Source: Octopus sinensis (taxonomy: Eukaryota). From it: a DNA stretch of 64,000 nt. Every line of letters starts with the position of its first letter. Position 1 is the first letter of the stretch. The notes under the pieces were generated by a model. It ran no database searches. It was not told the DNA's origin and was given only the letters and a program-made list of their open reading frames with translations. A program made the position numbers and the translations under genes. Positions 2,761-64,000 of this stretch are shown in pieces. The DNA is taken from NCBI RefSeq assembly GCF_006345805.1, contig NC_043000.1, forward strand, positions 144,150,001 to 144,214,000, given 5' to 3'.

Positions 2761-2800
2761 TGTATATAAACCGATTTCTTTTGTATGTGTGTGCGTGTAG

Positions 2801-8690: not shown

Positions 8691-8717
8691 CACGTATATA
8701 TATATATATATATATAT

Positions 8718-8963
8718 TATATTAAATTAGAGACAAAACCACTATTAGGCAAATCATACAATGAAAAACCTAAGCCAATACATAAGATTAATTAATTTAT
8801 ATTATTCAAATATATATCAAAATTATTAAAAAAGATAATTAATTATTGTTTTAAATAATTTTGTTATATATTTAAATAATATAAATTAATTAATCTTATG
8901 TATTGGCTTAAGCTTTTCATTGTATGATTTGCCTAATAGTGGTTTTATCTCTAATTTAATATA
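8718..8963. repeat. Near-perfect spacerless palindrome (123 bp arms) beside a (TA)n tract
   Basis: attaaattagagacaaaaccactattaggcaaatcatacaatgaaaa... mirrored by ...ttttcattgtatgatttgcctaatagtggttttatctctaatttaat; centre at 8840/8841. Confidence 0.9.
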
Positions 8964-9864
8964 GTATAATATTTTACTATAAAATTGGATTCAATCCTAA
9001 ATCTGATTTTTCCCTGTAAGTTTGGATTTATTCCCTAATATTTTATTATTAATTTATATATATATATATATATATAACAATGTAGAGAAAAAGAGTAAGA
9101 CGAAAAAATCGAATATCCAGTTCGTGAAGGATTGGCCATATGAAAGAAAGCAGTTAGGATCATTTCACCGCTTTGGATTTGTGTGCAATTCGCATATATA
9201 TCCTTTTTCGAAGGTGCTTTAGTATCAGAATTCCCTTGCTACAGAAATATTAGCTGTGTTATATTTTGTATGATAATCTGCGTGAAAACACAGCAGGTCT
9301 TCTTTTGAGTTTGGAAGGCAGTGGGTAATAGATAACTGCATTTTAGTCCTTCCTTATAACTCAGCAGGCCATTATTCCTTCTACGTAGGCATTACATAAT
9401 AAGGTTTCAGACTTATATTGTTGTATGTAATTTTCAGTAAGTAAATCTATCTTATTACTGTCCATGGAATTTCGCTTGGATTTGTTCAACTCTCATTTAA
9501 TATTGGCTGGTTCTGTAACTGTATTTATAGCACATATACTAATCGCAAAATTAAGATGAGCTTTATAACGTATTCGAATCTACCAAACTATATTTTCTCA
9601 TTTTCCTTTTCTCATTTTTACATATGGGGCTATTAAAACTGCAGGCAATTATTTGCAGGAAGCAGACTTGTACAGCTACGGTATTAACCACCTCTCTATA
9701 ACTCTACTCATGTACTTTCAGTTGCTGCAATACCTTATCTTGTGTTACTTGTGAAATTGTTTGTCGAACATATTTTACTGAGCAAATTTTCGTTCTCTTT
9801 TACACTACGGTTTGCCTACATTTAAGAAAACTTGTTTTCGAATTTTATTACGTTAAGACGGATA

Positions 9865-10257: not shown

Positions 10258-11129
10258 TTCTTTAATAATTTAGAGTTTGCATTCATTGCCTATCTATTAT
10301 GTACATGTTATCATCTTTACTATCAGAAAATGCAGTGTAATCGACACCACACAATGTCTAAGAATTTCACGAGAAGGAGGTGGATGGAAACTTGAACCCG
10401 GTATTTGCTTGAGTGCAATAGAGTTGAATCCGCTGAAGGTCCATCAAGGTACCAGGTGGTATATAGAAACCTAATGATAGGCTAAGTCTACTAGCGAAGT
10501 TGACAGCAATGTGATTTGAACTCGTAACAGATTGAGTCAGAACAAAGGCCACAACGTATTCGCTCCGACATTCTTACAGTTCAGCGAATCCATCGCCCTC
10601 CTCTTGATTTCTTCTTGATCTGATTTACATCGTCCAGTGCCGGATCAATATCGACATATTTGTTTCCAACATCGATGCTTCGATCGTCTGTATGATGTAG
10701 ACATTTTTATAATTGCATTGAAGCTGCATCACACAGCGGTTAAAAGAGCGATATGCGTTTAGAATAATCTATTACACAAATTTGGTGTCAGTCACTTCTG
10801 TGGTAGTGTCAATAGAAGCAAAGTATGTGTTGAAATTACTCATGTGTTTGTGTATGTCTTCGCATATGTGCGCGCCTCTGTGTCTGTGTGTGTGTGATTC
10901 ATCATACAGTCATTAAACGTAGCATGATTCACCATGGTATACATCATGAAATGACGTATACCATCATTACAATAAAGTTCTGTAATAATTGGTGAGAGGA
11001 AAGCATTTTTTAATTCTGTCATATACAAACTTGACTAAAGTTGACTTTTTAGATATTTCGCTAGACTTAAGAACGAAACGCTTCCAAGCCCTGCCATAAA
11101 CCAAGTGAAATATTTATGTATGCACACAG

Positions 11130-11545
11130 ACTTATCACAACTTTATTGTCGTCAAAAACCTTATAACAAACATTAATAATACGAAGTCTAACCTCTCATC
11201 CTCAAAAGAGATGTTTGATAAGGCACTCCCTTAGCATAACGGTGTCTGACTTGTACGACAGAGAATTTAAACAGAAGATATACAATATTATCAACAAAAA
11301 AATTCTTATAATAAATTAAGATAAGTTATATTAATATAACAAACTAAGTTATATAATATTATAACTAATATATAATAAACTAAGATTAGTTATATATAAG
11401 TTATATAAGTTATTTGTTCCACATTTCTCCTTCTATGTTTAGATTATTGTAGGTAAAAAATTCGTAACAGTGATTGAAAAACATTTCCCCAATAGTCATA
11501 GATATAAGAAAAGCTTCAATAGAATTTCAGTCAACGTTTCCAGGA
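11130..11545 (+). mobile_element. Penelope-like element remnant (RT C-terminal/linker region)
   Basis: Translates VVKNLITNINNTKSNLSSSKEMFDKALP ... FVPHFSFYV*IIVGKKFVTVIEKHFPNSHRYKKSFNRISVNVS, resembling the PLE motif WFNPPFS..V.TNIGKKFL.LIDKHFP..H.L.KIFNR..VKVSY. Confidence 0.75.
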
Positions 11546-12009
11546 GCTTCAACTCCGCCAAATAAGGCATAACAAACAAATGTATGAAGAAAGCTCTGTC
11601 TCCAAAATTAAATGATTATCAGGCTCAGTGGACCGGTTTCTGAGTTATGTATATCGACTCTATACCTGAAGTTTATTTGTAAAAGTTTAAAAGGGCAGGT
11701 ATTATGTTATAGGCAGTGGAGCCTGATAGTCTTTTAATTTGCGGGTTGAAGATTTTTTGCATGTTAGTGAGCCATTGGAATATTTTGTTATTTTAATCTC
11801 AGAAAAAAATTATATAGATATTACGGTATTTTACGAATTGCTAAAATCTTTCGTCTGTATATTCTTACTTCACATTCCGCAGGAGTCAACTTTGCCATTT
11901 AGCCTAGCAGGATTGAAAAAGTAAGTACCAGTTAAATACTGGGGTTGATGTATTCGATTATCACCTTCCTTCAATATCTTAGGGCCTTGTGCCTCTAACA
12001 GAAATACTA

Positions 12010-19984: not shown

Positions 19985-20575
19985 ACATACTTTTCTACTC
20001 TAAGCACAAGACCCAATAGTTTTGGAGAGGGTGTCCGTCGATTAGATCGACCCCAATACGCAACTGCTACTTAATTTATCGACATCTAAAGGATGAAAGG
20101 CAAAGTCGACCTCGGTGGAATTTGAACTCAGAACGTAAAGACAAACGAAATACCGCTAAGCATTTCGCCCAGCTTGCTAACGTTTCTGCCAGCTCACCGT
20201 CTTTAAAATTATCCTTTTTACTATAGGCACAAAGCTTGAAATTTCAAGGGAAAGGGGTAAGTCGATTACAGCGACCCCAGTACTCAACTGGTACTTATTT
20301 TATCTACCTCGAAAGGATGAATAGTAAAGTCGACCTCTGCGGAATTTGAACTCAGAACGTAGCGGCAGAAGAAATACCTATTTCTTTACTACCCACAAGG
20401 GGCTAAACACAGAGAGGACAACAAGGACAGACAAAGGAATTAAGTCGATTGTATCGACCCTGAAAGCCTGAAAGGCAAAATCGACCTCGGCGGAATTTGA
20501 ACTCAGAACGTTGCGGCAGACGAAATACCGGTAAGTATTTCGTCCGGCGTCCTAACGATTCTGCTGACTCGCCAC
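19985..20575 (-). mobile_element. Cluster of Meta-domain-type tRNA SINEs (monomer + dimer)
   Basis: Repeated gaaaggatgaaaggcaaagtcgacctcggcggaatttgaactc, the reverse complement of B-box + gaggtcgactttgcctttcatcctttcggggtcgataaattaagtaccag (Meta/MESC-like core). Confidence 0.85.
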
Positions 20576-21495: not shown

Positions 21496-22515
21496 TCATA
21501 CTAAGGAATAGTAGAGTGTAATACAAATACTTCATAAGAGCACTGAACAGTCTTGTGTTTATAACATCGATATGTACAAATAAATGTACATACGCGCTAC
21601 TAAATAAACATAAATAACAATCAGATAAGAAAATTGAATCAAAAACACAAATTAGCAAATACTTAAAATAATCAGTCAACTAAATATTACTTGGTTCAAT
21701 GTAAAATATAAGGAAGAAATATTTTAGACACGATAGATAAATACATAAAATAGCGATAAATTCAACAAATAACGTAACAGCGATTACCATCTTAGTTATA
21801 CCAGTAATAAGTTGTAACTGGTATATTCTCAATTAGAGGATAATCGTATTTAGCAGCGGTAGACAGGAAATCGATATGTGTTGTAATTGCTTGTAGAATT
21901 CAGCATAAAAATTTGTTATGGTAATACGTTTAACAGGCTTTTAGGTAAACAGCATGTTTTTGCAACCAGAAAACTATTGTGAAAATTCTTTTGTAGATTA
22001 TCGAGGATACTGAGTAAACATAATGAAGATTAGAAAAATATAAATACGTAACAAAAATAACTGAAAAGTCTATGGAATGTATTGAAAGAAATGAAAGTAT
22101 TTGAAATAGAGGCTAGAGTAGCAGTGACGTAATGGAAGGATATGTGGATCAAGCTAAAATTGTTCAATTAAAAATGAAAACTAGTTTACCATCAAACAAA
22201 TTAAGGCCAGGTAATGACTCATCAAATCAGAATAAAAAAAACTTACACGGCATTACCTGCAAAATCTGAGCAGTCTCTTGGTAAAATTATATTTCACATC
22301 TTGGTAAGAAGTTCAGTACTCTATGAGCAAGCTGCCTTACATCGACTCAACGTCTGCGCCAGAACAAAAGGTCTGTAAACAGGTGAGAAGTGGTTAAGAT
22401 TACAGTCAACGATACGGTGGAAATATTGTTCTCTCAGCACATATCTGTGTAACATCAGTTATGATATGCCTAGTCATCCACAGAGAGGTTGTTAGCAGCG
22501 CCTGAGAAGTAACGT

Positions 22516-22739
22516 ATTTCTTTATTACCCACAAGGGGCTAAACACAGAGGGGACAAACAAGGACAAAAATAGGTAATAAGTCGATATCATCGACCCCAG
22601 TGCGTAACTGGTACTTAATTTATCGACCCCGAAAGGATGAAAGGCAAAGTCGACCTCGGCGGAATTTGAACTCACAACGTAAAGGCAGACGGAATACGGC
22701 TAGGCATTTCGCCCGGCGTGCCAACGTTTCTGCCAGCTC
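22516..22739 (-). mobile_element. Meta-domain-type SINE with an 18 bp TSD
   Basis: gcgcctgagaagtaacgt at 22498-22515 and 22740-22757; tail ...agccccttgtgggtaataaagaaat. Confidence 0.92.
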
Positions 22740-23415
22740 GCGCCTGAGAAGTAACGTGTCATGTCCTTAGAACGTGGAAGAACAGCCATTCCATTCCGTT
22801 GAGATGCCACCTGGTGAAATGCATGACGTTAACAGAGGCAATGTAATTGTTTGCTACTTCACCTCAATCTTGCAGAAATAGGTTTCACTCGGCCGATTTC
22901 TCATCGGGTTATCAAAACTGCTCGTCACTCTCACCCAGTAATTTTATTTTCACTGGAGATGTGGACTAAATCTGACACCGAGCAATATGACTGATCTGTT
23001 TGATTAGAGCTTTACAACGCTGATGTATGGTATATGTCACATTCAACTGGTACTGGGCTACAAGCACATTAACTTTTCTTGGTTAATTTGTGTTTTTCTC
23101 TCATCCTTGTAGCCCCATAGATCAGTGCTAATCTCAACGTGTCTTGTATGCGCTACTATGGGAACGCAATTCTTCCACATACTGTCTCGCTTGAGATTCC
23201 CCCTGACTCCGTCTAGTTTTCACAATTACTTTTTTAAATAAAAAAAACAAGAAAAGATGTGTGAGTGGACGATCCGAACACATGATGCTAAATGATAAAG
23301 AAACATGTCTATAGAGCCCAACAATCGACCACATGCCATTGTTCGTTGCGGCAATTCAATTGCTAAGACTGGAACGAATTTGACACTGGAGTAAACATCC
23401 ACCAAATATTGATAG

Positions 23416-35509: not shown

Positions 35510-37599
35510 AGTGATTTTCGTAGTGTATATTACAGTCGAGTCTAGGTACTCCTGTTTTTTTTTCTTTCGTTACACCTAACGACGTAGGAACAGGAAATTT
35601 CCTGATACTTATCTAATTTCTAACGTTGTAGGAAGACCACACGTTTTGAACGGGCGTAAGCTGGTCATATATGAATTCATATGTAAATGGTACACCATTA
35701 TATCAACTCTAGAATAATGAAATCCAATGTTTGAAGGGGAAACATTAATCACAATAAATAAATCACTCTAAAAGGAAATTTGCTCACAATATAAACTCGT
35801 TTTCATTAATCTCGACCAGAATATGTCGTTTAAAACTTTAAAGTCGACGATGTACATTCTTAGCATGATATTGAAAAGTCTTGAGGGTTGGAAAAATCAT
35901 TAACGGTTTGGACATAATAGCTAGAGTGATTTATTTATTGTGATTAATGTTTCCCCTTCAAACATTGGATTTCATTATTCTAGAGTTGATATAATGGTGT
36001 ACCATTTACATATGAATTCATATATGACCAGCTTACGCCCGTTCAAAACATGTGGTCTTCCTACAACGTTAGAAATTAGTTTTAGGTCGAATGATAACAT
36101 GATTAAAATATAAACTTAAAAGATACGTTTAATCTATATTTCCGATATGATTAAAACTCATTTATCCTGAGTGTTAAAGAATAGTATGTACTCATAACAT
36201 ATAACAGCAAGATATGAGGCCGTGGAAATATACCTGCTCATACACGTATGATTCATGAATTAGGCGTTATTGCCGATATTTTTCCGGCAGTGAATTACAT
36301 AGCAATGTGAAGTAATACTATTTACATATAGCGATATATATTTAAAGGATTCTATTCGTAAACCACATTACATAATGCTTTTGGTTATTTCTTGATTATA
36401 CAAATATATAGTGAATTTTAGAAGAATGTTAGAAGAGGAGTTTCATATGTAGACCAGTGTAACATTCTTATTTTCAATGTAAATATATTACAAAGAAAGG
36501 ATATTTGATAGCAAAATGTGGGAGAATTGGTAAACACACGTAACTGTAGATATGAAAATATTTCGACATCACATCGAGAATCAGAACTTGAAAGAGAATC
36601 ACATAATTAGAAATTGAGATGATAAATATAAATTATTTGAGCAGGAGAGAAGTAAGCTCTTTTAAAGATTAGTCAATGTATTGTATTGTTAATTTCAGCA
36701 AAACAAGTTTGAAAGTGAGAACGAATTTCCAAACAATGCAATCGCCAAAACAAAAATAGTAAAGGATTTAGGATGCATTATTAAAGCAATTAATTGAAAT
36801 GAGTCTTAAATAAGTACAATCTTATTCACAAAACTATGTTTTGCTGTCTACTGATCAGAAAAAAACAAATACATACTAGCCAGTATTCCAATGTTCGTAT
36901 GGTGCTATCATTATAAAATATATCATTAAAGAAAGTAGGCATTACATGACAGTTTCAGGAACAATGACTGCAAACCTTGACCCACCAAGTGATCACCTTT
37001 TTTCAGCATCTCTTCTCTCGACTCAAGAATACTATTTTCAAAGAGAAGTGACACTGACTCCTTTAATGTCAATATAAGTGTTTAATAGGTGTCCAGAAGC
37101 GAAATCGTCCAAAGTGATCTCCTGGAAAGACATACTTTATATGCAAGTAATCGTTTGATTTGACAAGACACTACACCAATTTTCACTGTGGAGTATGTTT
37201 TATCTAAACGAATTTGTATTATGTCAAACCTCTTGCGAAGGAAGATAAATTGCAGCGTGGTCCAGCTTAACATTGCGAAATAAAATATGAAAAATTGTAA
37301 ATTCATTGGTCGAGGATATGCCTCTACGTAATATTATCCATCAATATCTAAATCCCGGTTCACACCTTCCACAGGGAGGAGATATTTAATTTATGGATAT
37401 TTGCTAAACACATCACAATAAATATGCACTAAAGTCAGGAATAAGATTATCTTGAAGATTTTAAAATAAACTAATAAATATTAATGAAAACGAGTTTATA
37501 TTGTGAGCAAATTTCCTGTTCCTACGTCGTTAGGTGTAACGAAAGAAAAAAAAACAGGAGTACCTAGACTCGACTGTAATATACACTACGAAAATCACT
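35510..37599. mobile_element. ~2.1 kb fold-back/non-autonomous TIR element with ~120 bp near-identical terminal inverted repeats
   Basis: Right arm 37480-37599 is the reverse complement of 35510-35600 plus 35773-35810; no coding remnant recognised inside; no clean TSD. Confidence 0.6.
35613..36079. repeat. 158 bp inverted duplication (35613-35770 versus 35922-36079)
   Basis: I can see only one mismatch between the arms (ccacacg/ccacatg). Confidence 0.92.
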
Positions 37600-38110: not shown

Positions 38111-38112
<2 letters not shown>

Positions 38113-38315
38113 CGGGAAGCTTTATGAAAATAAACAAAAGACGAAAGCAGGTGGAATACAAACAAACAATTGTATTAGTATGGCGCTCAGGAATGTAAAT
38201 AAAACAAGTCTTTTACGTTTCGAGCCTACGCTCTTCAACAGAAAGATACACAGAAAAGAAACACGGAGAGAAACAAGGAGAGAAAACAAATGCGTGCAGA
38301 AGCTAGCGAATCAAC
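38111..38315 (-). mobile_element. (TA)n-associated short repeat with a variant hammerhead-like motif (putative Penelope pLTR fragment)
   Basis: Minus 38209-38246: tcttt CTGTTGA a gagc-gtag-gctc GAAA cg TA aaaga; homologous copy at about 57595-57750. Confidence 0.5.
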
Positions 38316-39431
38316 ATGAGACGGATGTACCGATGAATACACAGATAGAGGCCACTAATAGTTTCACAGATTAGAGACACACATATGTATTTAAATTGAT
38401 AAAACTATAATATTGTTCTGTTACTAGACCTATACGTAAGGCTAAACTCATGGAAAGAAATCGATAATGAATAATTGAAGTATAGTAACTTTGTAATATC
38501 TATATATTTCTCATATATTTTCTTTAACATCTAAATCTCAACAGGGTACCTGTAACACATCGTTCAGTAGGATAGTTGGTTCAAACCCAACCATACACAT
38601 CCTCATCTTAAATGAGATTTAGAATGCAGCAGTGTGTAAATATGTTTTTTTTACAATTTTACCAATGTGGCATACCCTAGCAGAATAATGATATCGAAAA
38701 TATCTTAAATTTCTTTCCATACTTAAAATTGTTTACGTCTTGACGTAAAGATGAAAATAAGTGATAATAAATCTCAATTTAGCGGAGGTGACAACTGTAA
38801 GAGCTAAGAAATATTTTCAAAGATATTCTCTCCTAAGAGTACACATTAAAAACTACCTGTTTGATTTTACACTATCCCAAGAGACACACTTCACATAAAA
38901 AAAAAGAATGTATTTCACTTTTACCGAAACATAAGTAATGTTATAGTTTGCAGAAAAACAGTAAAATTTATAAATACTACTTGTTATATATGGATAGAAT
39001 TATAAATTAACAGAATACAAGTATACTTTGGTAGAGGAACATTTGTATACATTTGTTCTTGTATAGAAAAATAAATATATCCACGTACTAATTTTTATGC
39101 GTAAATGTTCATACATGCACTCCTACTGACATAGGTGCACTCATATACACGCATACACAATACAAACACACAAAGACATACACACACATGCATACATACA
39201 AAGGAACGCATACAATAATACATAATCATACAGGTGTATATATATTTTGTTTTGAAAACCTGATCTACGACATATAGACTTATTTTTATGAAGTATACGC
39301 ATGCTGCTGACAGGCATATACGTTCACATAAGGATTTGTGCTTCAATGCACGTATGTGTTTATATATATATATATAATAATACACGTGTATGCAATAATA
39401 CACACACACACACGCACACACACACACACAC

Positions 39432-39488
<57 letters not shown>

Positions 39489-39766
39489 TTCAACAATTGA
39501 GGGTCAAATTAATTAATTATTAATCAATTTCACCAAGTATTCAGTATGTAAAGGGACCATTTAAGGCGAATTCAATTATTACATTATATAAAAGGGCTTA
39601 GTAAAATAAATTACTTTGCCACATACTGAACTCATTAGAAATAGTAGCTAAAAAAACTTTTTTAAAACTATTTCTAATACTTAAAGAAAATCTCTCTCAT
39701 ATAGTGTTTGCTCAATTCAACTCACGAAAGTATGGGGGTAAAGACATTAAAAAATCAAATGCAAAG

Positions 39767-39828
39767 GTTATTTGAGAAAGTACGTTTCAAGATTAGTCAA
39801 CTCGACATTTCTATCATCAGCTCAGAAC
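39767..39828 (-). ncRNA. Hammerhead ribozyme-like motif (degenerate copy)
   Basis: Reverse-complement copy of 40254-40315 with a G->T change in helix III. Confidence 0.45.
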
Positions 39829-40253
39829 TTCTTGGTTTTGATTTGAAAACACTGAAAGTGGGAGCATACCCTTTCGGCTTCTTATACTGAGTTCAGTATG
39901 TGGCAAAGTAATTTATTTTACTAAGCCCTTTTATATAATGTAATAATTTGAATTCGCCTTAAATGGTCCCTTTACATACTGAATACTTGGTGAAATTGAT
40001 TAATAATTAATTAATTTTACCCTCAATTGTTGAAATTATAATTCAGCTCTCTCTATTTAATGCTTCGGATTTTACCGAAAAAGCATAGTGTTTACTGATT
40101 TTAACCCACGCTGGTGGAAAGGGGAGAGCGGAAATTCTTCGCTTGCATATTTTGGGTTTGCTGGCACTGTTAGTTTCGAGCAGATCTTCAGAAGCGATAA
40201 GAAGCCGAAAGGGTATGCTCCCACTTTCAGTGTTTTCAAATCCAAACCAAGGA

Positions 40254-40315
40254 GTTCTGAGCTGATGATAGAAATGTCGAGTTGACTAATCTTGAAACGT
40301 ACGTTCTCAAATAAC
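40254..40315 (+). ncRNA. Type I minimal hammerhead ribozyme-like motif
   Basis: tgag CTGATGA [t-aga-aat-gtc-gagtt-gac-taa-tct-t] GAAA c-gtac-g T T ctca: core boxes, palindromic helix III loop, helix I tgag/ctca; the closing pair of helix II is mismatched. Confidence 0.55.
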
Positions 40316-40496
40316 CTTTGCATTTGATTTTTTAATGTCTTTACCCCCATACTTTCGTGAGTTGAATTGAGCAAACACTATATGAGAGAGATTTTCTTAA
40401 GTATTAGAAATAGTTTTTAAAAAGTTTTTTTAGCTACTATTTCTAATGAGTTCAGTATGTGGCAAAGTAATTTATTTTACTAAGCCCTTTTATATA

Positions 40497-40549
<53 letters not shown>

Positions 40550-41526
40550 TTATTATATCTTTTACAAGGGCATGGTTGAGAGTTTTAAGTTATAAGTTAT
40601 GTAGCATAACTGTAACCCACTATGGACTTTCAAGTTCATTTCTAATTGTTTGGGTTTTTATAGATGTAGAATGAATGTAGATTAATATTTCTGTATAAAA
40701 TTGATAAGTAACAGAATAATAAAGACGAGGGATAGGAAATTGGGAGGAAGAAAAAAGAAAGCAAATATTTATAAGTAGCGGGAGAAACGCAGGTTTGCTA
40801 TAGACAGTAGAAGAATTATATGTAAGGAACGCATTCGGAACATCGTTTATTCGTACAGGCGACATATATTTTAACGGTACAACGATAGCATATTGAAAAT
40901 AAGCATGCATGTATTAAAAAGAAGCATAAATATGCACGCATCTATACACTCATATATATATATATATAATATATATATATATACAACGATTTCTGCTTCA
41001 ATACACGATTACACATCAGGAATCTTGCTAAACGAAATAATAAACGTATATAAAACAACAGGTCCAGTGTGTATGTGTGTGCGTATGTGAGTGTTTTCAT
41101 GCATATATCCCTAAATATATCTATATTCAATCGTGTGTGTGTATATATATATATATCGGGACGGTCGTTTTTTTTTGCCAAATAAACACACGCACAATAC
41201 ATCTTTTCTTCACTCGTTTATTACTGTTCTTATTTTAATATTGTCACTCATGTCCATTGTCCATAAATCTTTTGTCACGCATCTGTGACATTTTCAGTGA
41301 CACTTTTCGTTTTCGCGCGTTCTTGCTCTACTTCATTCTGTTCTCCTCAGATGTGTATCCTTATGTGCGCATGCTTTTATATTCTTGTTTGTGCGTGTGT
41401 GCATGTGCGTGTATATGTCTGTCATAGTTTTTAGCAGCTGTGTGGCCTTCTCCTCAGGCCCATCTCCTCACCCCATTGTACAGCAGCTGTTTTAAGACTC
41501 CAGAAGACTATGGTATAGTTCCTGTA

Positions 41527-41943
41527 GAAAAGGCGGCGAGCTGGCAGAAGCGGTACCACACCGGGCGAAATGCTTAGCGGTATTTCGTCTGCGTTACGTT
41601 GTGAGTTCAAATTCCGCCGAGGTCGACTTTGCCTTTCATCCTTTCGGGGTTGATTAAATAAGTACCAGTTACGCGCTGGGGTCGAATTATCAACTTAACC
41701 CTTTTGTCTGTCCTTGTTTGTCTTCTCTGTGTTTAGCCCCTTGTGGGTAGTAAAGAAATAAGTATTTCGTCTGCGTTACGTTGTGAGTTCAAATTCCGCC
41801 GAGGTCGACTTGCCTTTCATCCTTTCGGGGTCGATAAATTAAGTACCAGTTACGCACAGGGGTCGATGTAATCGACTTAATACCTATGTCTGTCCTTGTT
41901 TGTCCCCTCTGTGTTTTAGCCCCTTGTGGGTAGTAAAGAAATA
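41527..41943 (+). mobile_element. Dimeric Meta-domain-type SINE with a 15 bp TSD, nested in the Penelope element
   Basis: ggtatagttcctgta at 41512-41526 and 41944-41958; two tandem cores, the second lacking the start of the tRNA head. Confidence 0.92.
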
Positions 41944-42419
41944 GGTATAGTTCCTGTATTCTTGTATGTACAAGTGTGCACCCACGGTGCTGCCATCGTG
42001 GAAGTTGTTGTTATTGCCAATTTGTTATTATTGTTGCTGCTGTCGTTGTTAATTATGTTGTCGGCATTGTTATAGCCATACATCAATTTTCGTATCTACG
42101 TGTTTGTGTGTGTAAGTTTTCGCTTTGTATGTTGTATCTGTCCATGCCATTTATATACCTTCATTTATTTATTTTATCTATCTCTATATCTCATATTCAT
42201 CAATGGTATGTGACAAATATATTTATATATTTACGTATTTATGTATTTATAAATTTTATTTATATATTTATATATATATCTGTTTCTCATAAATATGACA
42301 CAAATATATTGTGTGTATTACGCTGTGTTTTTTTTTTGTATATTATTTACGATCATTTTCCCTCTCTCTTCTCATCCTTCCTGTCTTTAGTCATGTAGCG
42401 TGGTGGTGGGTGTTACTGT

Positions 42420-43711: not shown

Positions 43712-46260
43712 TGTTTCTTTATTAGCCACACAGGGCTGCACACAGATAGAACAAATTACAAGGTAGAGCTTTTCTTTTGGGGGTAAAAAAAAGGGAGTGG
43801 TGGTTTTCGATCAAAAGGGATCGTAAAAGGAAAGAAGGATGACACAAAAAGGGAGGGTTAAAAAAGAGGGGGGGAGAGCAAAAAAAAATGAATAATAGGG
43901 ATTGTTATCACAGAAATGTCAATATGAAGTGTAATGGGGAGGACAGGTGAGGTTTACCCGTGGAAAGAAAAGCCTACGGAAAAGACCACGGTAACCTCGG
44001 TCAATGAAGTCACATGTTATATTTCTTTTTTTTTTTTTTGCAAATTAGCAACTCTCTGTATTAATTTTTACGGTTCATAGAATCATAGTCAAGGTGGCTT
44101 CGTCATTGATACGTGCCATCCTTGCTACATTCACCCATCTTTTTTTAAAACATTCACTAGACAAAACTTGCATCTCTACTCTCACTTTTTTCTTCAAGTG
44201 ATACTTGAAGAAGTTGATGAGAGATTGACCAGAGAGGAAAGTGTTTGTCTCTAATCCTTTCAGGCGCGTCCACCAGATACATTCTTTCGCCATAGCCACA
44301 AGTATGATAAAAATAGCTCTTCCTTCCCGTTTGAAGGAAGGAGGCGTGACGATATTAACGATAGACTCGGCTGATAAACCGACTCGTCCCACACGTGGCA
44401 GCAGTCGTTCGACATAAGCCCACAGGTCGGAAATTGCTGGACACTGCACGATTGCGTGCAGAGCGGTTTCGTCGCTCTGCCCGCATCTCGGGCATGTCGG
44501 CCCCGTGTTTCTCGAGCCATGCCTATAGAGCTTATCCCGAACGGGTAGCGCTTCTCGGTAGCACCGCCAGGCCAGGGATCTCTTGAAGTTGTCCATAGGT
44601 CCCGGGCCGAAAGTCGTTTGAAACAGGCGGGCCAGGTATTCCTCGTCGACGCCCAGGTTTGCCCCGAGCTCGTCGTCGTACCTCCCCTCCACTAATCCCC
44701 TATAGAATGCTTTGGTTGTGTTGAAGTCACTCAAGGTCGACCCGGGACGGCAGAGTTGCTTGAGAGCAACACGACACTCGCGGTGCCATTCGCCCTTCCT
44801 CGGCCTCTTTTTGATCCACGACTGTAGTTCGGTCATGGAGACGAGTTGCGGGAATGCGTGCCTCACAAACGGCGACCACATCTGGTCACCGTCGTCCACA
44901 TAGATCCGGAGATGTCGCAGTCTCAGCGCGTGTCTGCGCATCATCAACCACGGCATGCCCAGCCCTCCTTTTAACGGGTGTTGACAGCAAATGGATCGCC
45001 TGACCAGCGGGACGCATCCTTTCCACAAGAAGCGGGAGAGGATGCGTTCTAGTTTGGTGGTGGTAGGGTCGGGACAAGGTACGACGGTCAGGCGGTAGTA
45101 GATGATGGACGCGATGTACGCGTTCACCACCTCCGCCCGACCTTTTAGGGACAGTTTCCTCTCGGCCCATTGCTGGGCGAGAGTGACCACCCTACTCGTT
45201 ATCTCGTTCCAGTTCTTCTCCATTTGGAGGTCCGGACCGAACCAGACCCCGAGCAACTCAACCGGGCCGTCTGTCCAGCGTCCTACGACGGAGGTACTGG
45301 TGGACGGCATGGGCTTGCTTCTTCAGGTGCCGAGCCACAAGCCCACTGACTTTTCCCGGTTGATTTTTGCTCCTGTCACCGCTTCGTAGTCTTTCAGTGT
45401 CTCGCCGACCCGCTCGATGTGCTCGTGGCTTGACACTATGACGGTGACGTCGTCCGCGTATGCAGACATGCTCGTCCCGCATCCCAATTCTCGCGGGATG
45501 CCCCTTAGAGTCGCCAGCTTCCGCAGTAGTGGCTCGAGAGGCAATACGTATAGAAGCGCCGAGAGGGGGCATCCCTGACGGACCGAACGTGCAATGTCGA
45601 AAGGTCTCGATAAATGTCCATTTACGCGAATTACCGAACGGATGCCTCTGTACAAGGCAGCTATCCAGCCACGGCAGACGGGACCGAAACCAGCCGCTCT
45701 CAGGACTGCCTCCAAGCATCGATGGTCTACCCTATCAAAGGCTTTCGATTGATCCAAGTTGATCAGGGCCCCACCCATGCCAGGTTCGTTAACTACCCTG
45801 TCTATGATGTAGCGCATCAGATGGAGGTTGTCATGCAAGCTCCGACCCGGCACGGCGCACGTTTGTGCGTTGTCGACCAGTTTCTCGATGACAAGCGCCA
45901 ACCTCTTGGCTAACACCTTTGTCAAAATTTTCAGGTCTGCATTGAGCAGCGTGAATGGTCTAAAGTTATCTATAATGTTTCCCTTGTTTGCATCTTTCTT
46001 CAGCAGAGTTACAGCTCCTCGACTCACAAAACCGGGTATGCTCCCGTTTTGCTGCCAGTTGCAGTATACCGCTGCCAAGACGTCTCCAAACAAGTCTGGC
46101 ATACAATTGTAAAACTCGTAGGGTAGACCATCCAAACCCGGTGATTTGTCCCTCGAGCATTCTGCTATCGCTTCCTGCACTTCCGCCGCCGTGATGGCAC
46201 CTTCGCAGCACCCTGCCTTTCTTGTCGAGAGTCGTGGCAGGCTATGTAGGTAGGCACTGA
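43712..46260 (-). mobile_element. 5'-truncated L1/Tx1-type LINE inserted in a (GATA)n microsatellite
   Basis: GC-rich island; RT + zinc-knuckle ORF2; 3'UTR ends cagccctgtgtggctaataaagaaac; flanked by gatagatagatat (left) and (agat)n (right). Confidence 0.92.
44075..46258 (-). pseudogene. LINE ORF2 reverse transcriptase + zf-RVT with a single in-frame stop at 45323-45325
   Basis: KSPGLDG, NFRPFTLLNADLKIL, LDQSKAFDRVDH, VRQGCPLS, AYADD, GGLGMP, CPRC..DETALHAIVQC. The two track ORFs are in the same frame, separated only by TGA (probably from TGG). Confidence 0.93.
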
Positions 46261-46322
46261 AGATAGATAGATAGATAGATAGATACATACATAGATAGAT
46301 ACATAGATAGACATATATATAG

Positions 46323-46420
<98 letters not shown>

Positions 46421-46799
46421 CTTACTTGGAAATGGATGCGTGGCGGTCGATCATATAATAATGTAAATAATATATATATATTTGTGTGTGTTTGTGTTCA
46501 TATATTCATACATACATGTTGATACTTGCATATATATGTATATACACATGCATATATGTGTATAGGATGTCAAAAAACATAAACAGCATATAAAATGAGA
46601 GAGGCAACACAAAGGACAATCTCTACACATGTTGTCCATTGTTTTATCTACTCCGCATTTCTTAAACAGTGGACAACTGATAAGGAGATGGTTCTTTATC
46701 TTGCTTGTCTCTTGACTCTATTTGTTTCTTTCGTCGTTCAAAAAGAGTTCTTTTTCCATATTTTTGTACTTCATGTTCTCGTTTTTCTTGTTGTTTACC

Positions 46800-49725: not shown

Positions 49726-50346
49726 ATACACAAGGTTTCATTTTTACGAATATTTCTTCAATCACAACTGGTATAACTGAAATATAATCTCATCAGTTGA
49801 ATAAGATGGAGAAAAAATAGATTTAAACTGTTTATAAACATTGAAAACAGTGCCCTAAAAAAAGATTAAATATTATATATGGAAGCGTATTCGCTCATGC
49901 ACCACAATTTTTCTCTCGACCTACAATTATGAAATAGCAATAAAATAGTCTTAAGATTTTGTATGCTTTTCTACATTATAAATGTATGTATTCCACATCA
50001 TATCATTGGTGTTTTCCCACGATAGACGAATCAATCGGAAATATACAAAACTTAGTAGAAGCAGGTAGTATTTGAATAAATTGGTGCAGAACACAAAAGA
50101 CAGTAAATAGTCTGTAACAACATCTTGTAATTGTTTATAATCAGGAGGTTAGATACAAGTGATAGTATATACGGAATTTATTTTTTGCCTTGCGATAAGA
50201 CTTATATTCGCGTCTGCTGTGTTTTTCATATTAGTAAAAAATGTTGGCATACAGAAAAAAAGCTTGTACGATAGAACCCCCATCACCTAATAGTGTTTCC
50301 AATAGAGAAAAATTTGCTTTCATGATGTGTATTTTTTATGGTTTCA

Positions 50347-50745
50347 AAGGCGGCGAGCTGGCAGAAATGTTAGCATGCCGGGCAAAATGCGTAGCCGTAT
50401 TCCGTCTGCGTTATGTTCTGATTTCAGCTATCGCCGGGGTCGACTTTGCCTTTCATCCTTTTGGGTTCGATAAATTAAATACCAGTTACGCACTGGGGTC
50501 GATGTAATCGACTTAATCCGTTTGTTTGTCTTTGTTTGTCTCCACTGTCTGTAGCTCTTTGTGGGTAGTAAAGAAATAGGTATTTCGTTTGCCGCTATGT
50601 TCTGAGTTCAAATTCCACAGAGGTCGACATTGCCTTTCCTTCTTTCGGGGTCGATAAATTAAGTACCAGTTAAGTCCTGGAGTCAATGCATTCGACTATC
50701 TCCCATCCTCGTAATTTCAGGCTTTGTGCCTATAGTAGGAAGGAT
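50347..50745 (+). mobile_element. Dimeric Meta-domain-type SINE
   Basis: aaggcggcgagctggcagaa head, two cores, same dimer junction (aagaaataggtatttcgt) as 41527-41943, alternative tail ttgtgcctatagtag. Confidence 0.85.
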
Positions 50746-54728: not shown

Positions 54729-55012
54729 AAATACATATATAATATATATATATATAATATATATAATAATATATATATATACAAAGAGCAATAAAGATTC
54801 AAGTTAATTTAAAAATTACTTGAATATGGTACCTAAATTAGATGCACCAAAAAAAACTTACTGATAACAATACAGTAATGTGGGGTGATATAAGCGAGAA
54901 GAAGCAACAAGAATGCATCCATTCTTGTTGCTTCTTTCTCGTATATATATATATATATATATATAAATAATCTACATAATATATATAACATGTGTATATA
55001 TATGAAAATATT

Positions 55013-55770: not shown

Positions 55771-56039
55771 AACAGAAGGTACAAAAATATAATACATATA
55801 ATATATATATATATAGATATAGCATAATTAAATCTCAGAATGAGATTGAAACAGTAACCGCTCGATAATGTAAAGTATAGAAGCCATCTTATCATGGCTA
55901 ACCACATTGGGGAGGGGGTTGCTACTGTAGCTTTATAGTCCCAAGAGATCTTCGTCTCTAGCTGGCTCTAAACACAATATCTGTGTCTTTGGAGTATTTG
56001 CAAAGGGAGGCCATCCCTTCCTCGCAAGCCTGAGTGATA

Positions 56040-56083
56040 CGCTAGAACTAGTTTCGGGATGGTTGTCCCTCGTCAACGGGCGG
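56040..56083 (-). ncRNA. Type I minimal hammerhead ribozyme-like motif
   Basis: Minus: cgcccg TTGACGA ggga-caacca-tccc GAAA ctag T T ctagcg; G-C-closed helix II and palindromic CUAG loop; C3 is U. Confidence 0.6.
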
Positions 56084-56546
56084 TAACCACCAGGTAGCGA
56101 TGAAAGTGAAGGCTCCTTTGCAAATAGATATAAGTTTTTCTAATGGCGTCTGCCACTGATGTCGAAAAACGAACGGTAAGCATAATTAAATCTCAGAATG
56201 AGATTGAAACAGTAATCGGTCGATAATGTAAAGTATAGAAGCCATCTTATCATAGGGATGGCCTCCCTTTGCAAATACTCCAAGGACACGGATATTGTGT
56301 CTAAAGCCACCTTGAGACGAAGATCTCTTGGGGCTATAAAGCTACAGTAACACGCCCTCCCCAATGTGGTTAGCCATGATAAGATGGCTTCTATACTTTA
56401 CATTATCGATCGATTACTGTTTCAATCTCATTCTGAGATATAATTAAGCTTACTGTTCGTTTTTCGACATCAGTGACAGACGCCATTAGAAAAACTTATA
56501 TCTATTTGCAAAGGAGCCTTCACTTTCATCGCTACCTGGTGGTTAC

Positions 56547-56589
56547 CGCCCGTTCACGAGGGACAACAATCCCGAAACTAGTTCGAGCG
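56547..56589 (+). ncRNA. Second copy of the hammerhead-like motif (core mutated to TTCACGA)
   Basis: cgcccg ttcacga ggga-caacaa-tccc gaaa ctag tt cgagcg. Confidence 0.5.
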
Positions 56590-57179
56590 TATCACTCAGG
56601 CTTGCGAGGAAGGGATGGCCTCCCTTTGCAAATATCAAAGACACAGATATTGTGTTTAGAGCCAGTTAGAGACGAAGATCTCTTGGGGCTATAAAGCTAC
56701 AGTAATACCCCCTCCCCAATGTGGTTAGCCATGATAAGATGGTTCTATACTTTACATATATAATAATATATATATATATATAATATATATATATACATAT
56801 TATATATATATATGCATATAATATATATAATATATAAAATATATAATATATATATATATAATGTATATATATATATCATATATATATTAAATACATATAA
56901 TATTATAAATAGATAAGTGTATTTTTACCTGTTAACAATTAACACGGAAAAAATAAATAAATAGTTACCAGGGTAGAAAAAATCTCACAAGTAAAGATGT
57001 TGTAACCTTGTTTATAAGGTAGAAACTTCGTGTTTACGTTGAATATATTCTGAATAATATATGAATAAATAAATGGAGTTAACGCAGGCGTAATCAAATA
57101 TTTTTAGTTTCGACACATGTTTCGAAAATTCCACTTAAACTCCATTTATTTATTTATATATATAATATATATAATATAT

Positions 57180-60800: not shown

Positions 60801-61137
60801 GTACATCAAAGGGCACCAATTTGTTAATAGAATGAACTGGTTGCTGACTAAATCTATTTTTCTCCATACTTTCGTCTATGAACACATCTTTTATGGTTCA
60901 TACCTGGAGGATTATTCATCAATTTGCTTTCGCACGAAATATTTGGGGAGTTTAAATTTATTCATCTCTTTCGTCGAAGTAAAACGATTCTTTGATATGT
61001 TGTTGATCATACACATATTAGCGGAAAATAACACAATTATTACATTTGTTATGGACTTATTTCCAATTATTGACTAGTATTAAAGAGAAGTCTAGTATCG
61101 AAAAAAGAAGAAACGAATTTTCTGGCTATTGATGGGG

Positions 61138-61270
61138 CACGGAATGTGTGCCTATAGCCAGCTGGAGGAGACATTCTCCTGGGGCTACAAGCTACAGTAA
61201 CACCCACCCTCAGTGGTTAGCCATATTGAGATGGCAAATATACCTCACATTGTCATGCAGTCCCTGTTTA
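61138..61270 (+). mobile_element. Diverged fragment of the 55821-56757 family
   Basis: ctggggctacaagctacagtaacacccaccctcagtggttagccatattgagatgg versus ttggggctataaagctacagtaataccccctccccaatgtggttagccatgataagatgg. Confidence 0.7.
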
Positions 61271-61295
61271 TACCCTGTTTAGAGATTTATTATTG

Positions 61296-61341
<46 letters not shown>

Positions 61342-61346
61342 ATATG

Positions 61347-61477
61347 TACTCTTCATTTCGAGCATTCAACGAAATATGAGTCTTCGATGACGGTTGATCC
61401 CATAAATTCCAAAACAAAATTTAGAGCAACTGTCTTTGAAGACTCATATTGTCGTTAAATGCTTGAAATGAAGAGTA
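61347..61477. repeat. 131 bp fold-back element (~50 bp arms) flanked by (TA)n on both sides
   Basis: tactcttcatttcgagcattcaacgaaatatgagtcttc ... gaagactcatattgtcgttaaatgcttgaaatgaagagta. Confidence 0.8.
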
Positions 61478-61481
61478 TATA

Positions 61482-61525
<44 letters not shown>

Positions 61526-61526
<1 letters not shown>

Positions 61527-64000
61527 CTCAATGCACAAGGTGTCAGCCCTTCCATCAATGCACAAAAATGGAAGGTCCATTCATTGAAGACTGGGTTGGT
61601 AACCATTCACACCACATCCCTTTCTTCATTCTCACTGAGACCCACCTTGACAACTCCCACTTGGAAGCCGAAGTGAGAGTGAAGAATTTCACAACCATCC
61701 GCGCGGATCGTATCGGCAGGAGGAAGGGTGGAACTGCCATTTTCCTGCATGATTCATTTGCGGCAGATGGAAATAGTATATTCTCCAACGGCTACTGTGA
61801 ATCGGTCACCGTGCACAACAAAGCCAATGACCTGACAGTAATTGGGCTCTATAGGCCGCCCCAAACACCCATACTGTGCTTTAAAGAATGCCTCAACATC
61901 ATTAAGTGCTTTATTCAACAGTGCCATGCTAGCAACATACTCATGATGGGAGACTCCAATCTACCCTGTGTTGACTGGACTACAAACTGTTTGAAACCAA
62001 GCACCCCCGCCTCAACCGCTGACAAAGAAGCAGCAGAGTCACTTTTCGACTTTACGAATGAGTTTTTCTTGTCCCAACTTGGCCTTGCACCAACAAGACA
62101 TCAGAACATTTTGGACCTAGTGTTTAGTAACCACACTAACACTATACATAACGTTACAGTGGAAAAAACCCTTCTTTCAGACCATGACATGGTTCTCTGT
62201 AACATGAAATTCCACCAGCCGAAAGCTAATCCTAGTGACCTCCCTCCAGCCCACCCATTTGACAACATGGATCTCCATAATGCCAACTGGGATGCAATCA
62301 GGAACGAGCTATCACATGTTGACTGGTCCTTTACACATACACACATCTCCACCAACCATAAAACATCTTGGCAGATCTTTGTAGACACCGTCACAGACAT
62401 ATGTGCAAAACACTCCCCACCAAGACCTGTGAACAAAAAGTGCAGAATCCCCCAAAACAGAAAAACCATTATCAGAAAAATAAAAAGAACAAACAAAAAA
62501 ATTAACAAACTAAAGTACTGCCAACAGCAACACACACATTCGACGGCTATCGCACTGCTTGAATCCAAAAAATATAACCTCCAACAATGCATGAAGACCC
62601 TCATCAATAACCAAAGATCAGCTGAGGAGAAGTGGGCCATTGAAAAAATCAAACTCAACCCTAAAGTGTTCTTTTCATTTGCGAGGAAACGCAGGGTCAC
62701 TGTCTCCATTGTTGGCCCTCTAATTGACGAAACTGGCACTCTCCAAGATAATGCCAAATCCATGGCCGAGATACTGCAGAAACAATACTGCTCTGTTTTC
62801 AGCAATCCTGATATGGCCGATCTGGGCTGTATCAGTGATGTCAACCCCCAACACACTATATCGGACATAACGTTTAGTGCCCCTGATGTCTTAGCGGCGA
62901 TAAACGAAATAAAACACAATTCAGCAGTAGGCCCCGATAGGTTCCCTGCTTGTGTCCTGAAGGTGTGTCGACACTAACTTGCATCTCCCCTTGCTAATCT
63001 GTGGAGAAACTCACTGGATGCTGGCTATATTCCAAAAAACCTTCTGTCCCAGTCTGTTGTCCCAGTTTTCAAAAAGGGAAACAAGTCCCTTGCAGTGAAC
63101 TACCGTCCGATCTCACTCACCTCTCATATCATCAAGGTATTTGAGAGGGTGGTGAGATCTCGAATAACCCAATTTCTGGAAAACAACAGACGGCTGATCT
63201 CCAACCAACATGGCTTCCGTAATGGAAGGGACTGCATAGCGCAGCTCCTGCATCATTTTGATGACATTTTGAGAGCTTTGGGAGAGGGCTCCAACACCGA
63301 TGTCATCTACCTTGATTTCAGTAAGGCCTTTGACAGGGTCGATCACAAGATTCTATTGAAAAAACTATCCAACGTTGGTGTCTCTGACAGACAGATCTCA
63401 ACATGTTGTAGTTGAAGGGGTAAAATCAAGCCCAGCCAAAGTCAGTAGTGGCGTTCCGCAAGACACTGTGCTGGGCCCACTTCTGTTCATCATTTACATT
63501 AATGACATTAATGACATCATCAAGCACAGCAACATAAAAATTTTTGCAGATGATTCCAAGCTACAGAAGGTCATAAATGAGGCGAGTGACCGGACATGCC
63601 TTCAGTCAGATCTACTGGCTGTTATCCAATGGGCAGAAAACAATAATATGTTGCTGAACGAGGATAAATTTGAGTTAATCCACTTTCGAAAAGAGGATGC
63701 CCTGGAACTCCCATACTCCCTTCAGGTGAAACTCTCGCGGCGTCCAACAACATCAGAGACTTGGGAGTAATTGTGGACAACAACATAAGCTGGGCCACTC
63801 ATATAAACACCAAAGTTGACATGGCCCGCAGAATGTGTTCCTGGATTCTCAGAACTTTCCAGTCGAGAGATATCCACACCATTATCCTTCTCTTCTCCAC
63901 TTTTGCCCGACCCCACCTTGAATACTGTTGTCCACTGTGGTCTCCCCACACAATACAAGGTATCAAAAAAGTTGAAGCACTTCAAAGGGCAATCACAAAA
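61526..64000 (+). mobile_element. CR1-type LINE ORF2 (APE endonuclease + RT), pseudogenised, continues beyond the window
   Basis: LNAQG, LTETHL, RADRIGRRKGG, LYRPP, MGDSNLP, ILDLVF, LSDHDMV (APE); NYRPISLTS, QHGFR, YLDFSKAFDRVDH, SGVPQ.TVLGPLLF, IFADD (RT). Stop at 62975-62977; frameshifts near 63380 and 63720. Confidence 0.93.

What the first reader, a model, noticed from the sequence alone, without database searches (positions are those of the whole stretch)
39487..40498. 559 bp hammerhead-bearing unit inserted as circularly permuted, head-to-head copies in a (TA)n tract
Seen: the right arm is 1.1 monomers. The left arm is an inverted copy that reads straight across the monomer junction, so the template was circular or tandem. 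Each arm has a CUGAUGA...GAAAC-GUAC motif, there is no ORF, and both 3' ends point outward into TA runs. Established: Penelope-like elements carry minimal hammerheads in their pLTRs and form inverted-pLTR insertions; animal retrozymes are non-coding tandem hammerhead repeats that yield circular RNA. Inference: a non-autonomous circular-RNA retroelement copied by a PLE RT from both ends of a break in (TA)n.
Basis: partly seen in the sequence, partly recalled or inferred. Interest (0 to 1): 0.75.

Follow-up and report, generated by a model that had tools for sequence, protein, structure and literature searches.

The report
Penelope-style insertion of a hammerhead repeat
A short repeat carrying a self-cutting RNA (hammerhead) motif has been pasted back-to-back into a TA microsatellite in the layout typical of Penelope retrotransposons, so it is most likely a new example of a known kind of hitch-hiking element rather than a new system.

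Summary
The anatomy is real. The right arm, 39888-40498 (+, 611 bp), is 1.09 units of 559 bp. The left arm, 39487-39885 (-, 399 bp), is an inverted copy of the right arm's last ~300 bp plus a 97-nt run-on. Both 3' ends enter (TA)n. The right type I hammerhead is the only strict hit in 64 kb (palindromic stem III in 0 of 200 shuffles); the left one is mutated. No protein, Pfam or Rfam match was found.

This layout (partial tandem, inverted truncated copy at the 5' end, 'tail' on one arm, TA target) is the published Penelope-like element (PLE) insertion pattern. Animal retrozymes as non-autonomous PLE derivatives is also already proposed in print. An unrelated 357-bp hammerhead-like unit at 55817-56757 repeats the geometry, and a diverged relative ends at the same base, so 3' ends look fixed rather than freely permuted.

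A circular template is not shown: an uncleaved tandem transcript explains everything equally. Closure of the 559-bp unit rests on one junction, read once. Verdict: new member of a known kind (non-LTR retrozyme-like, non-autonomous PLE derivative), probably in an octopod genome. Modest interest, as a footprint tying such units to PLE machinery.

The parts
39436..39488 (.). Left (TA)n target tract, preceded by (CA)n at 39400-39432; one AA interruption 20 nt from the arm
39487..39885 (-). Left arm, 399 bp: inverted 5'-truncated copy reading D-A-B (40197-40446 then 39888-40036)
   Evidence: 7 differences in ~400 columns
39487..39582 (-). 'Tail': 96-97 nt run-on beyond the point where the right arm stops (segment B)
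   Evidence: compare the optional PLE tail in PMC3846280, PMC8557442, PMC11167929
39755..39839 (-). Left hammerhead, damaged (G16.2 to U breaks the stem III palindrome; G to A in helix I)
   Evidence: (constrained fold -3.7 vs -9.6 kcal/mol; stem III self-dimer -4.4 vs -11.6)
39886..39887 (.). Head-to-head junction: 2 untemplated bases inside a 7-bp-arm palindrome at 39884-39899 (weak signal)
   Evidence: arm >=7 in 264 of 18302 random junctions; energy test not significant (634 of 4000)
39888..40498 (+). Right arm, 611 bp = 1.09 units, reading A-B-C-D-A'
39888..40446 (+). 559-bp unit; folds as a highly self-paired circle
   Evidence: circular MFE -150.3 kcal/mol, 62% paired, z -6.95 vs 30 shuffles; 1 of 32 background windows was lower (a DNA inverted repeat)
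40037..40196 (+). Segment C, present only in the right arm; the B-to-C link that closes the unit is read once
   Evidence: C pairs at long range with D downstream of the hammerhead
40243..40327 (+). Type I hammerhead: extended helix I, CUGAUGA 40262-40268, helix II region 40269-40293, GAAA 40294-40297, 2-bp palindromic stem III, predicted cleavage after GUU at 40305
40447..40498 (+). Second copy of segment A (pLTR-like terminal repeat); ends in TATATAAT, which merges with the target
40497..40545 (.). Right (TA)n target tract; one TT interruption 20 nt from the arm, mirroring the left flank
   Evidence: (I5)
55817..56757 (.). Comparison element (unrelated family 2): 357-bp unit, head-to-head arms of 434 and ~504 bp (both >1 unit), ~47-nt tail, hammerhead-like motif in each arm, TA flanks
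61134..61297 (+). Diverged 5'-truncated family-2 copy ending at the same base as the element-2 left arm, directly before a TA tract

Best explanation
This is one dead-on-arrival insertion of a non-autonomous, hammerhead-bearing ~559-nt element (non-LTR retrozyme-like, a PLE pLTR-type derivative), copied in trans by a Penelope-like RT/GIY-YIG protein.

(1) A master tandem array elsewhere is transcribed [inferred]. (2) The PLE protein cuts both strands of a (TA)n tract [inferred from PAc biochemistry and the TA bias of PLEs; the target itself is shown]. (3) Each 3' end primes reverse transcription at one of two internal sites on the RNA, 193 and ~290 nt downstream of the ribozyme cut site and both at TATAAT motifs [positions shown; priming inferred]. 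The 97 nt between the sites become the tail on one arm. (4) Both cDNAs read through the hammerhead site [shown], so the template was an uncleaved multimer (my estimate ~55%) or a religated circle (~45%). (5) The cDNAs stop after 611 and 399 nt and are joined head-to-head with 2 extra bases [junction shown; end-joining inferred].

This locus cannot release a unit-length circle by itself. Each strand carries only one ribozyme, the left one is damaged, and a read-through transcript would fold into a ~300-bp hairpin that includes the ribozyme.
For: Geometry matches the published PLE pattern: partial tandem plus an adjacent inverted 5'-truncated copy, a tail on one arm, mostly head-to-head (PMC3846280; PMC8557442; PMC8969392). 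(TA)n is a reported preferred PLE target that hides TSDs.

The hammerhead is above chance. Its 2-bp stem III with a tetraloop and U.U helix II base matches the description of axolotl retrozyme HHR_Amex2 (PMC7229834). The unit folds far better than shuffles, as retrozyme circles do. 559 bp lies within the 51-972 bp range of retrozyme families.

No coding match.

Independent replicate: family 2, with no similarity to family 1, has both arms longer than a unit, the same geometry, a near-MFE hammerhead fold and circular z -4.1/-4.6. A fixed 3' end is seen in 2 of 2 comparable copies.

PAc extends both strands from two fixed internal sites and prefers AT-rich DNA (PMC11167929). A minimal PLE-type hammerhead whose flank ends in (TA)n lies 1.3 kb away (38241).
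Against: No second locus of family 1 is in the window, and no animal genome could be searched, so copy number, master arrays and the partner PLE are unseen. The B-to-C link is read once.

The 97-nt tail is longer than the published 30-40 bp. PAc starts at sites without homology to the cut DNA, whereas both ends here share 2-8 nt with (TA)n.

Helix II lacks the conserved G10.1-C11.1 pair (PMC4209133), and the active fold is 4.6 kcal/mol above the local MFE. Rfam does not recognise the motif. In the retrozyme preprint only 1 of 9 tested elements cleaved.

No PLE ORF was confirmed in the window. The mirror-image TA flanks are unexplained.
Confidence: 0.65

Rival explanations
1. One reading: the template was specifically a ligated ~559-nt circular RNA, copied past its start by a PLE RT from both ends of the break. 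This is a sub-case of the best explanation.
For: Both arms cross the cleavage site, and both arms of element 2 exceed one unit. The duplicated 52 bp in the right arm are identical. The circle fold is strong. Animal retrozymes are abundant circles and this mechanism was proposed in PMC7229834 and PMC4209133.
Against: A tandem transcript predicts the same sequence. PAc uses unprocessed RNA, and ribozyme mutants still insert. The ribozyme here looks weak as a monomer. In element 2 the three copies of one 150-bp segment carry 7, 6 and 4 private columns (about 7, 4 and 3 events), which does not discriminate. 3' ends look fixed.
Confidence: 0.3
2. Ordinary debris of an autonomous PLE: C-D-A is the 3' UTR/pLTR, B is the start of the next copy, and the right arm is two truncated pieces (A-B and C-D-A') joined by a template jump, so no 559-bp unit exists.
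For: B-to-C is seen once, exactly where the left arm ends and next to a TATAAT. No long-range pairing links A/B with C/D. Opposite-strand hammerhead pairs 100-700 bp apart were already ascribed to truncated PLEs (PMC4209133).
Against: No PLE protein similarity in B, C or D (weak for non-coding UTR). No ATG frame above 18 codons on the sense circle. A 6-bp hairpin spans B|C. The sister element 2 is a closed short unit read in both arms.
Confidence: 0.15
3. Secondary rearrangement: a single tandem insertion ending in B-(TA)n was partly duplicated in inverted orientation by snap-back repair, flank included, and the right arm later lost B by a deletion between AAT microhomologies.
For: Read outward, both flanks give AAT, (AT)9, T, (AT)14-16, TTAT. 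Only 9 of 1035 pairs of TA-tract ends in the window agree this well, this pair included. There is a 7-bp palindrome at the junction. Self-priming was proposed for PLE inverted junctions.
Against: It needs two events. Element 2 has the same arm geometry without mirrored flanks. A one-sided tail is a normal PLE feature. The coincidence was noticed after the fact, and single-base interruptions are common in these tracts.
Confidence: 0.1
4. Assembly or library fold-back artefact, or a MITE/foldback DNA transposon with ~300-bp terminal inverted repeats.
For: A 306-bp inverted repeat at 98% identity between TA runs.
Against: The arms differ by 5 substitutions. The left arm holds a D-A-B path that is not a mirror of the right arm. 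The two ends are different sequences (B vs A), so there are no true terminal inverted repeats. The pattern recurs with an unrelated unit.
Confidence: 0.05

Closest known systems
Metazoan non-LTR retrozymes (PMC7229834; bioRxiv 10.64898/2026.07.22.740005)
   Same: Short non-coding unit with a type I hammerhead, GC <50%, highly self-paired predicted circle, size within 51-972 bp; hammerhead matches the description of axolotl HHR_Amex2 (2-bp helix III, tetraloop, U.U helix II base); PLEs are the proposed mobiliser.
   Different: No two consecutive hammerhead-bearing units here, so it fails the preprint's 'active retrozyme' definition; larger than the 170-400 nt invertebrate circles; inverted head-to-head insertion with a tail in (TA)n was not described in the parts I read; expression, cleavage and circularity untested.
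Canonical EN+ PLE insertions (Penelope/Poseidon, Neptune; PMC3846280, PMC8557442, PMC11167929)
   Same: Partial tandem with pLTR-like repeat, adjacent inverted 5'-truncated copy, head-to-head junction, one-sided tail, hammerhead ~100-300 nt upstream of the 3' end, AT-rich/(TA)n target, no discernible TSD.
   Different: No RT/GIY-YIG ORF; unit 559 bp rather than ~3 kb; tail 97 nt rather than 30-40; hammerhead has an extended helix I rather than the minimal form.
Non-autonomous Chlamys PLEs such as MRC1 (PMC8557442)
   Same: Non-autonomous PLE derivatives that form pLTRs and head-to-tail multimers.
   Different: Green-algal; most Chlamys lack canonical hammerheads; they show 3' similarity to a known autonomous partner, which is not found here.
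L1 twin-priming 5' inversions (recalled, no call)
   Same: Two cDNAs primed from both ends of a break and joined head-to-head.
   Different: No poly(A) tail, no TSD, and the arms overlap by ~300 bp instead of covering adjacent parts of one RNA.

Membership tests
Non-LTR retrozyme | Type I hammerhead in the unit | tested here: met
   (only strict hit; 0 of 200 window and 0 of 5000 monomer shuffles with palindromic stem III); Rfam gave no hammerhead match
Non-LTR retrozyme | Short non-coding unit | tested here: met
   559 bp; no Pfam or protein match for the frames tested; a 92-codon antisense frame has no homologue or confident fold
Non-LTR retrozyme | Tandem organisation with at least two consecutive hammerhead-bearing units | tested here: inconclusive
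   Not met at this locus (1.09 units, one ribozyme per strand). Dispersed monomers are normal offspring of such families, but the master arrays lie outside the window
Non-LTR retrozyme | Highly self-paired predicted circle | tested here: met
   z -6.95 sense, -4.85 antisense; 62% paired
Non-LTR retrozyme | Self-cleavage and expression as linear and circular RNA | not testable with these tools
   needs transcription assays or RNA-seq
PLE-mobilised element | Partial tandem forming a pLTR | tested here: met
   52-bp A/A' repeat
PLE-mobilised element | Adjacent inverted 5'-truncated copy, head-to-head | tested here: met
PLE-mobilised element | 30-40 bp tail on one end | tested here: inconclusive
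   a one-sided extension is present but is 97 nt (47 nt in element 2)
PLE-mobilised element | (TA)n / AT-rich target | tested here: met
   TA tracts >=36 bp cover 1437 of 64000 bases
PLE-mobilised element | Sequence shared with the pLTR of an autonomous PLE of the host | not testable with these tools
   no animal genome or repeat library available; no similarity to the pLTR-like piece at 38112-38400
Autonomous PLE | RT plus GIY-YIG ORF | tested here: not met
PLE minimal hammerhead (PMC4209133) | Short helix I, 7-8 bp helix II, bulge after A9, G10.1-C11.1 pair | tested here: not met
   extended bulged helix I, interrupted helix II with a U.U base; only the palindromic stem III is shared
MITE / foldback DNA transposon | Terminal inverted repeats at both ends | tested here: not met
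   left end is segment B, right end is segment A

The most novel reading that the evidence does not exclude
These loci are direct genomic footprints of a PLE RNP reverse-transcribing around a ligated retrozyme circle from both strands of one (TA)n break. In cephalopods, several unrelated circular hammerhead RNAs would then parasitise PLE machinery, and each head-to-head insertion would record the family's two priming sites. That would give insertion-level proof of who mobilises animal retrozymes and that the circle is the intermediate. A far less likely extension (~0.03) is that the 92-codon antisense frame is translated, making an ambisense coding circle.
Probability: 0.3. Interest if true: 0.62.

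Novelty: new member of a known kind. Interest (0 to 1): 0.38.

Why it matters
The link between animal retrozymes and PLEs rests so far on shared hammerheads, co-occurrence and pLTR homology (PMC7229834; bioRxiv 10.64898/2026.07.22.740005, which says the mobilisation mechanism remains to be worked out). Units too short to encode anything, inserted with the full PLE signature (inverted partner, tail, TA target), are a more direct kind of evidence. Two unrelated families in 64 kb suggest that the host genome holds enough copies to test circle versus multimer by sequence alone. My searches for cephalopod + retrozyme, octopus + Penelope + hammerhead and retrozyme + insertion + inverted + target site + Penelope listed no paper on cephalopod retrozymes or on this geometry for retrozymes. 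That library lacks most subscription journals, repeat databases were not searched, and supplements of the two retrozyme papers were not seen. It remains an extension of an existing model, not a new system.

Tried and rejected
Rfam at gathering thresholds over the whole window gave 0 hits. At E<=10 over the element, its hammerhead and element 2, only chance matches appeared.

Prokaryotic origin: an exact 21-mer in GTDB genomes gave 0 hits, and blastn of the unit against phages and plasmids gave none.

Coding: 4 frames of the unit against Pfam gave nothing at curated cut-offs. The 74-aa sense frame against longer proteins scored 0 of 8 candidates. The 101-aa antisense frame against 1.84 billion representatives gave 0 hits. 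The Atlas gave no usable hit, exact look-up found 0 of 3, and single-sequence AlphaFold of the 92-aa frame gave pLDDT 46.8. The third sense frame of segment C and the 58- and 80-aa frames were not run against the large protein sets.

Junction palindrome as evidence of self-priming: nominal 1.4-2.6% by arm length, but 16% by energy and 18% for element 2. Not relied on.

Variant pattern in element 2 as a circle/multimer test: uninformative. Shared sequence among the window's foldback elements: none clearly above shuffles. Antisense hammerhead: a core-like match at 40174-40191 (-) fails the descriptor.

A suspected PLE ORF remnant at 11100-11600 (motif recalled) was not confirmed. The sigma-70 scan was at chance level and is not relevant to an animal host. 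The relaxed hammerhead descriptor was written after seeing element 2, so its null rate (8 of 100 shuffles with a hit) is only indicative; it does not recover the element 1 motif because it demands 4 straight helix II pairs.

Full report
HOST AND SETTING. The window is AT-rich animal DNA full of microsatellites, SINE-like 182-bp repeats and broken LINE ORFs. The only eukaryote named among 28 relatives of one LINE ORF is the octopod Argonauta hians (2 rows, 58-61% identity). With my recollection that the 182-bp repeat is an octopus tRNA-derived SINE (no call), an octopod host is likely but not proven.

ANATOMY. Name four segments: A 39888-39939, B 39940-40036, C 40037-40196, D 40197-40446. The right arm reads A-B-C-D-A' on + (39888-40498, 611 bp; A' = 40447-40498 is identical to A; period 559). 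The left arm reads D-A-B on - (39885 down to 39487, 399 bp) and differs from the right arm at 7 of about 400 columns. Two untemplated bases join the 5' ends, and both 3' ends enter TA tracts. A simpler way to state it is that the left arm is the last ~300 bp of the right arm, inverted, plus a 97-nt run-on. The links D-A and A-B are each read twice; B-C, which closes the unit, is read once.

HAMMERHEAD. A strict type I descriptor finds one motif in 64 kb: CUGAUGA at 40262, with cleavage predicted after GUU at 40305. Window shuffles gave any hit in 28 of 200 and a palindromic stem III in 0 of 200; monomer shuffles gave 9 and 0 of 5000. Helix I is extended and bulged, stem III is 2 bp with a palindromic tetraloop, and helix II starts with U.U and lacks G10.1-C11.1. 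The active fold lies 4.6 kcal/mol above the local MFE. This matches the description of axolotl retrozyme HHR_Amex2 (PMC7229834) better than PLE minimal hammerheads (PMC4209133). The left copy has G16.2 changed to U and a helix I change; its stem III self-dimer drops from -11.6 to -4.4 kcal/mol. Rfam does not recognise the motif at any threshold tried, and activity is untested. In the retrozyme preprint only 1 of 9 tested dimers cleaved.

STRUCTURE AND CODING. As a circle the unit folds at -150.3 kcal/mol, 62% paired, z -6.95 against 30 shuffles (antisense -4.85). Of 32 background windows (from 54 eligible) only one, a DNA inverted repeat, scored lower. C pairs at long range with D downstream of the ribozyme; A pairs with B; nothing but a 6-bp hairpin links B to C. 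The longest sense ATG frame is 18 codons. An antisense frame of 92 codons is reached by 7 of 1000 shuffles but has no Pfam, homologue, exact match or confident fold. The 74-aa sense frame has no longer relative and no Atlas hit. The unit has no match in GTDB (one exact 21-mer), phages or plasmids.

A REPLICATE IN THE SAME WINDOW. At 55817-56757 a 357-bp unit with no similarity to the first lies head-to-head between TA runs. Its arms are 434 and ~504 bp, so both exceed one unit, and again the left arm is the right arm's 3' part plus a run-on (~47 nt). Each arm has a decayed hammerhead-like motif with a 4-bp helix II beginning G-C, a palindromic stem III and GUU; its constrained fold is within 0.4 kcal/mol of the MFE, and the circle scores z -4.1 and -4.6. 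Neither copy has a perfect core, so it fails the strict descriptor. A ~70-75% identical, truncated relative at 61134-61297 ends at the same base as the left arm, directly before (TA)n. A minimal PLE-type hammerhead about 100 nt upstream of a TA junction lies at 38241 (-), and smaller foldbacks next to TA runs lie at 8708, 54888 and 61345. The pattern is therefore common here and not an assembly accident.

WHAT IS KNOWN. PLE insertions are partial tandems, often with an inverted 5'-truncated copy at the 5' end and a 30-40 bp tail on one end, and several clades favour (TA)n, which hides TSDs (PMC8557442: passages and section 10; PMC8969392: passages). Head-to-head is the commonest inverted form (PMC3846280: passages and Discussion). 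The Anolis PLE protein cuts and extends both strands of AT-rich DNA, starts at two fixed internal RNA sites that define the tail, and uses unprocessed RNA (PMC11167929: parts 1-2 of 4). Opposite-strand hammerhead pairs 100-700 bp apart, and a circular template for more-than-unit copies, were described or proposed in 2014 (PMC4209133: parts 1-2 of 4). Animal retrozymes make circles and PLEs were named as likely mobilisers (PMC7229834: parts 2-4 of 6; supplement unreadable). A 2026 preprint argues they are non-autonomous PLE derivatives, from co-occurrence and pLTR homology (10.64898/2026.07.22.740005: parts 1-3 of 5; supplements not seen). PMC8490949 (passages) added nothing on insertion geometry. 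L1 twin priming is recalled.

MECHANISM. Shown: TA target, two different 3' ends 193 and ~290 nt downstream of the cut site, read-through of the cut site by both arms, and a 2-nt junction. Both ends fall at TATAAT motifs, 2 of the 4 TATA/ATAT-containing spots in the unit. Inferred: transcription from a master array elsewhere, cutting and priming by a PLE protein in trans, and end-joining of two cDNAs. Read-through rules out a cleaved linear monomer but leaves an uncleaved multimer (~55%) or a circle (~45%). The three copies of one element-2 segment carry 7, 6 and 4 private columns and do not decide this. This locus cannot release a circle by itself, having one ribozyme per strand.

AGAINST AND UNEXPLAINED. 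There is no second family-1 locus and no partner PLE in view; a suspected PLE ORF remnant at 11100-11600 was not confirmed. The tail is longer than published ones. The right arm could be two PLE end fragments joined at B|C (0.15). The two TA flanks are mirror images, including an interruption 20 nt out; 9 of 1035 tract-end pairs agree this well, which leaves room for snap-back duplication (0.1). The junction palindrome is weak evidence.

VERDICT. Observation confirmed; interpretation partly supported. It works like a PLE-mobilised non-autonomous element and most resembles a non-LTR retrozyme offspring copy. It is not an autonomous PLE, and retrozyme membership awaits tandem arrays, cleavage and circles. 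Three searches listed no report of cephalopod retrozymes or of this geometry for retrozymes, within a library that lacks most subscription journals. New member of a known kind; interest 0.38.

Noticed in passing
window 55817-56757: Second, unrelated head-to-head insertion in (TA)n: 357-bp unit, both arms longer than one unit, hammerhead-like motifs, ~47-nt tail. A cleaner example of the same class than the finding itself.
   Followed up: yes
window 61134-61297: Diverged truncated copy of the 357-bp family, ending at the same base before a TA tract.
   Followed up: yes
window 38112-38400 (-): PLE pLTR-like fragment with a minimal hammerhead (core at 38241), ending directly in a TA tract.
   Followed up: partly
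window 8708-8972, 54888-54948, 61345-61476: Shorter foldback (inverted) insertions next to TA runs, probably 5'-truncated PLE-type ends; no hammerhead found in them.
   Followed up: partly
window 39432-39489 and 40496-40553: The two TA flanks of the finding are mirror images, including a single-base interruption at the same offset; unexplained.
   Followed up: partly
window 40075-40350 (-): 92-codon antisense ATG frame across the hammerhead (7 of 1000 shuffles); no homologue or confident fold.
   Followed up: yes
window 11100-11600 (+): Broken frames that resemble the region after the RT domain of Neptune-type PLEs (motif recalled); three searches did not confirm it.
   Followed up: partly
window 35510-37599: Nested inverted repeats (35510-35603 with 37506-37599; 35613-35770 with 35922-36079, 99% identical) without TA flanks.
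   Followed up: no
window 2797-3303: Two tandem copies of a 246-bp unit starting in a (TG)-rich tract; no hammerhead hit.
   Followed up: no
window 41529-41948, 20024-20573, 22512-22745, 50346-50745, 11849-11997: SINE-like family with 182-bp tandem units (recalled as octopus tRNA-derived SINE; not verified).
   Followed up: no
window 44075-46450 (-) and 61472-63770 (+): Broken LINE ORFs (RVT_1 + zf-RVT; endonuclease + RVT_1); named relatives of the first are from Argonauta hians.
   Followed up: partly
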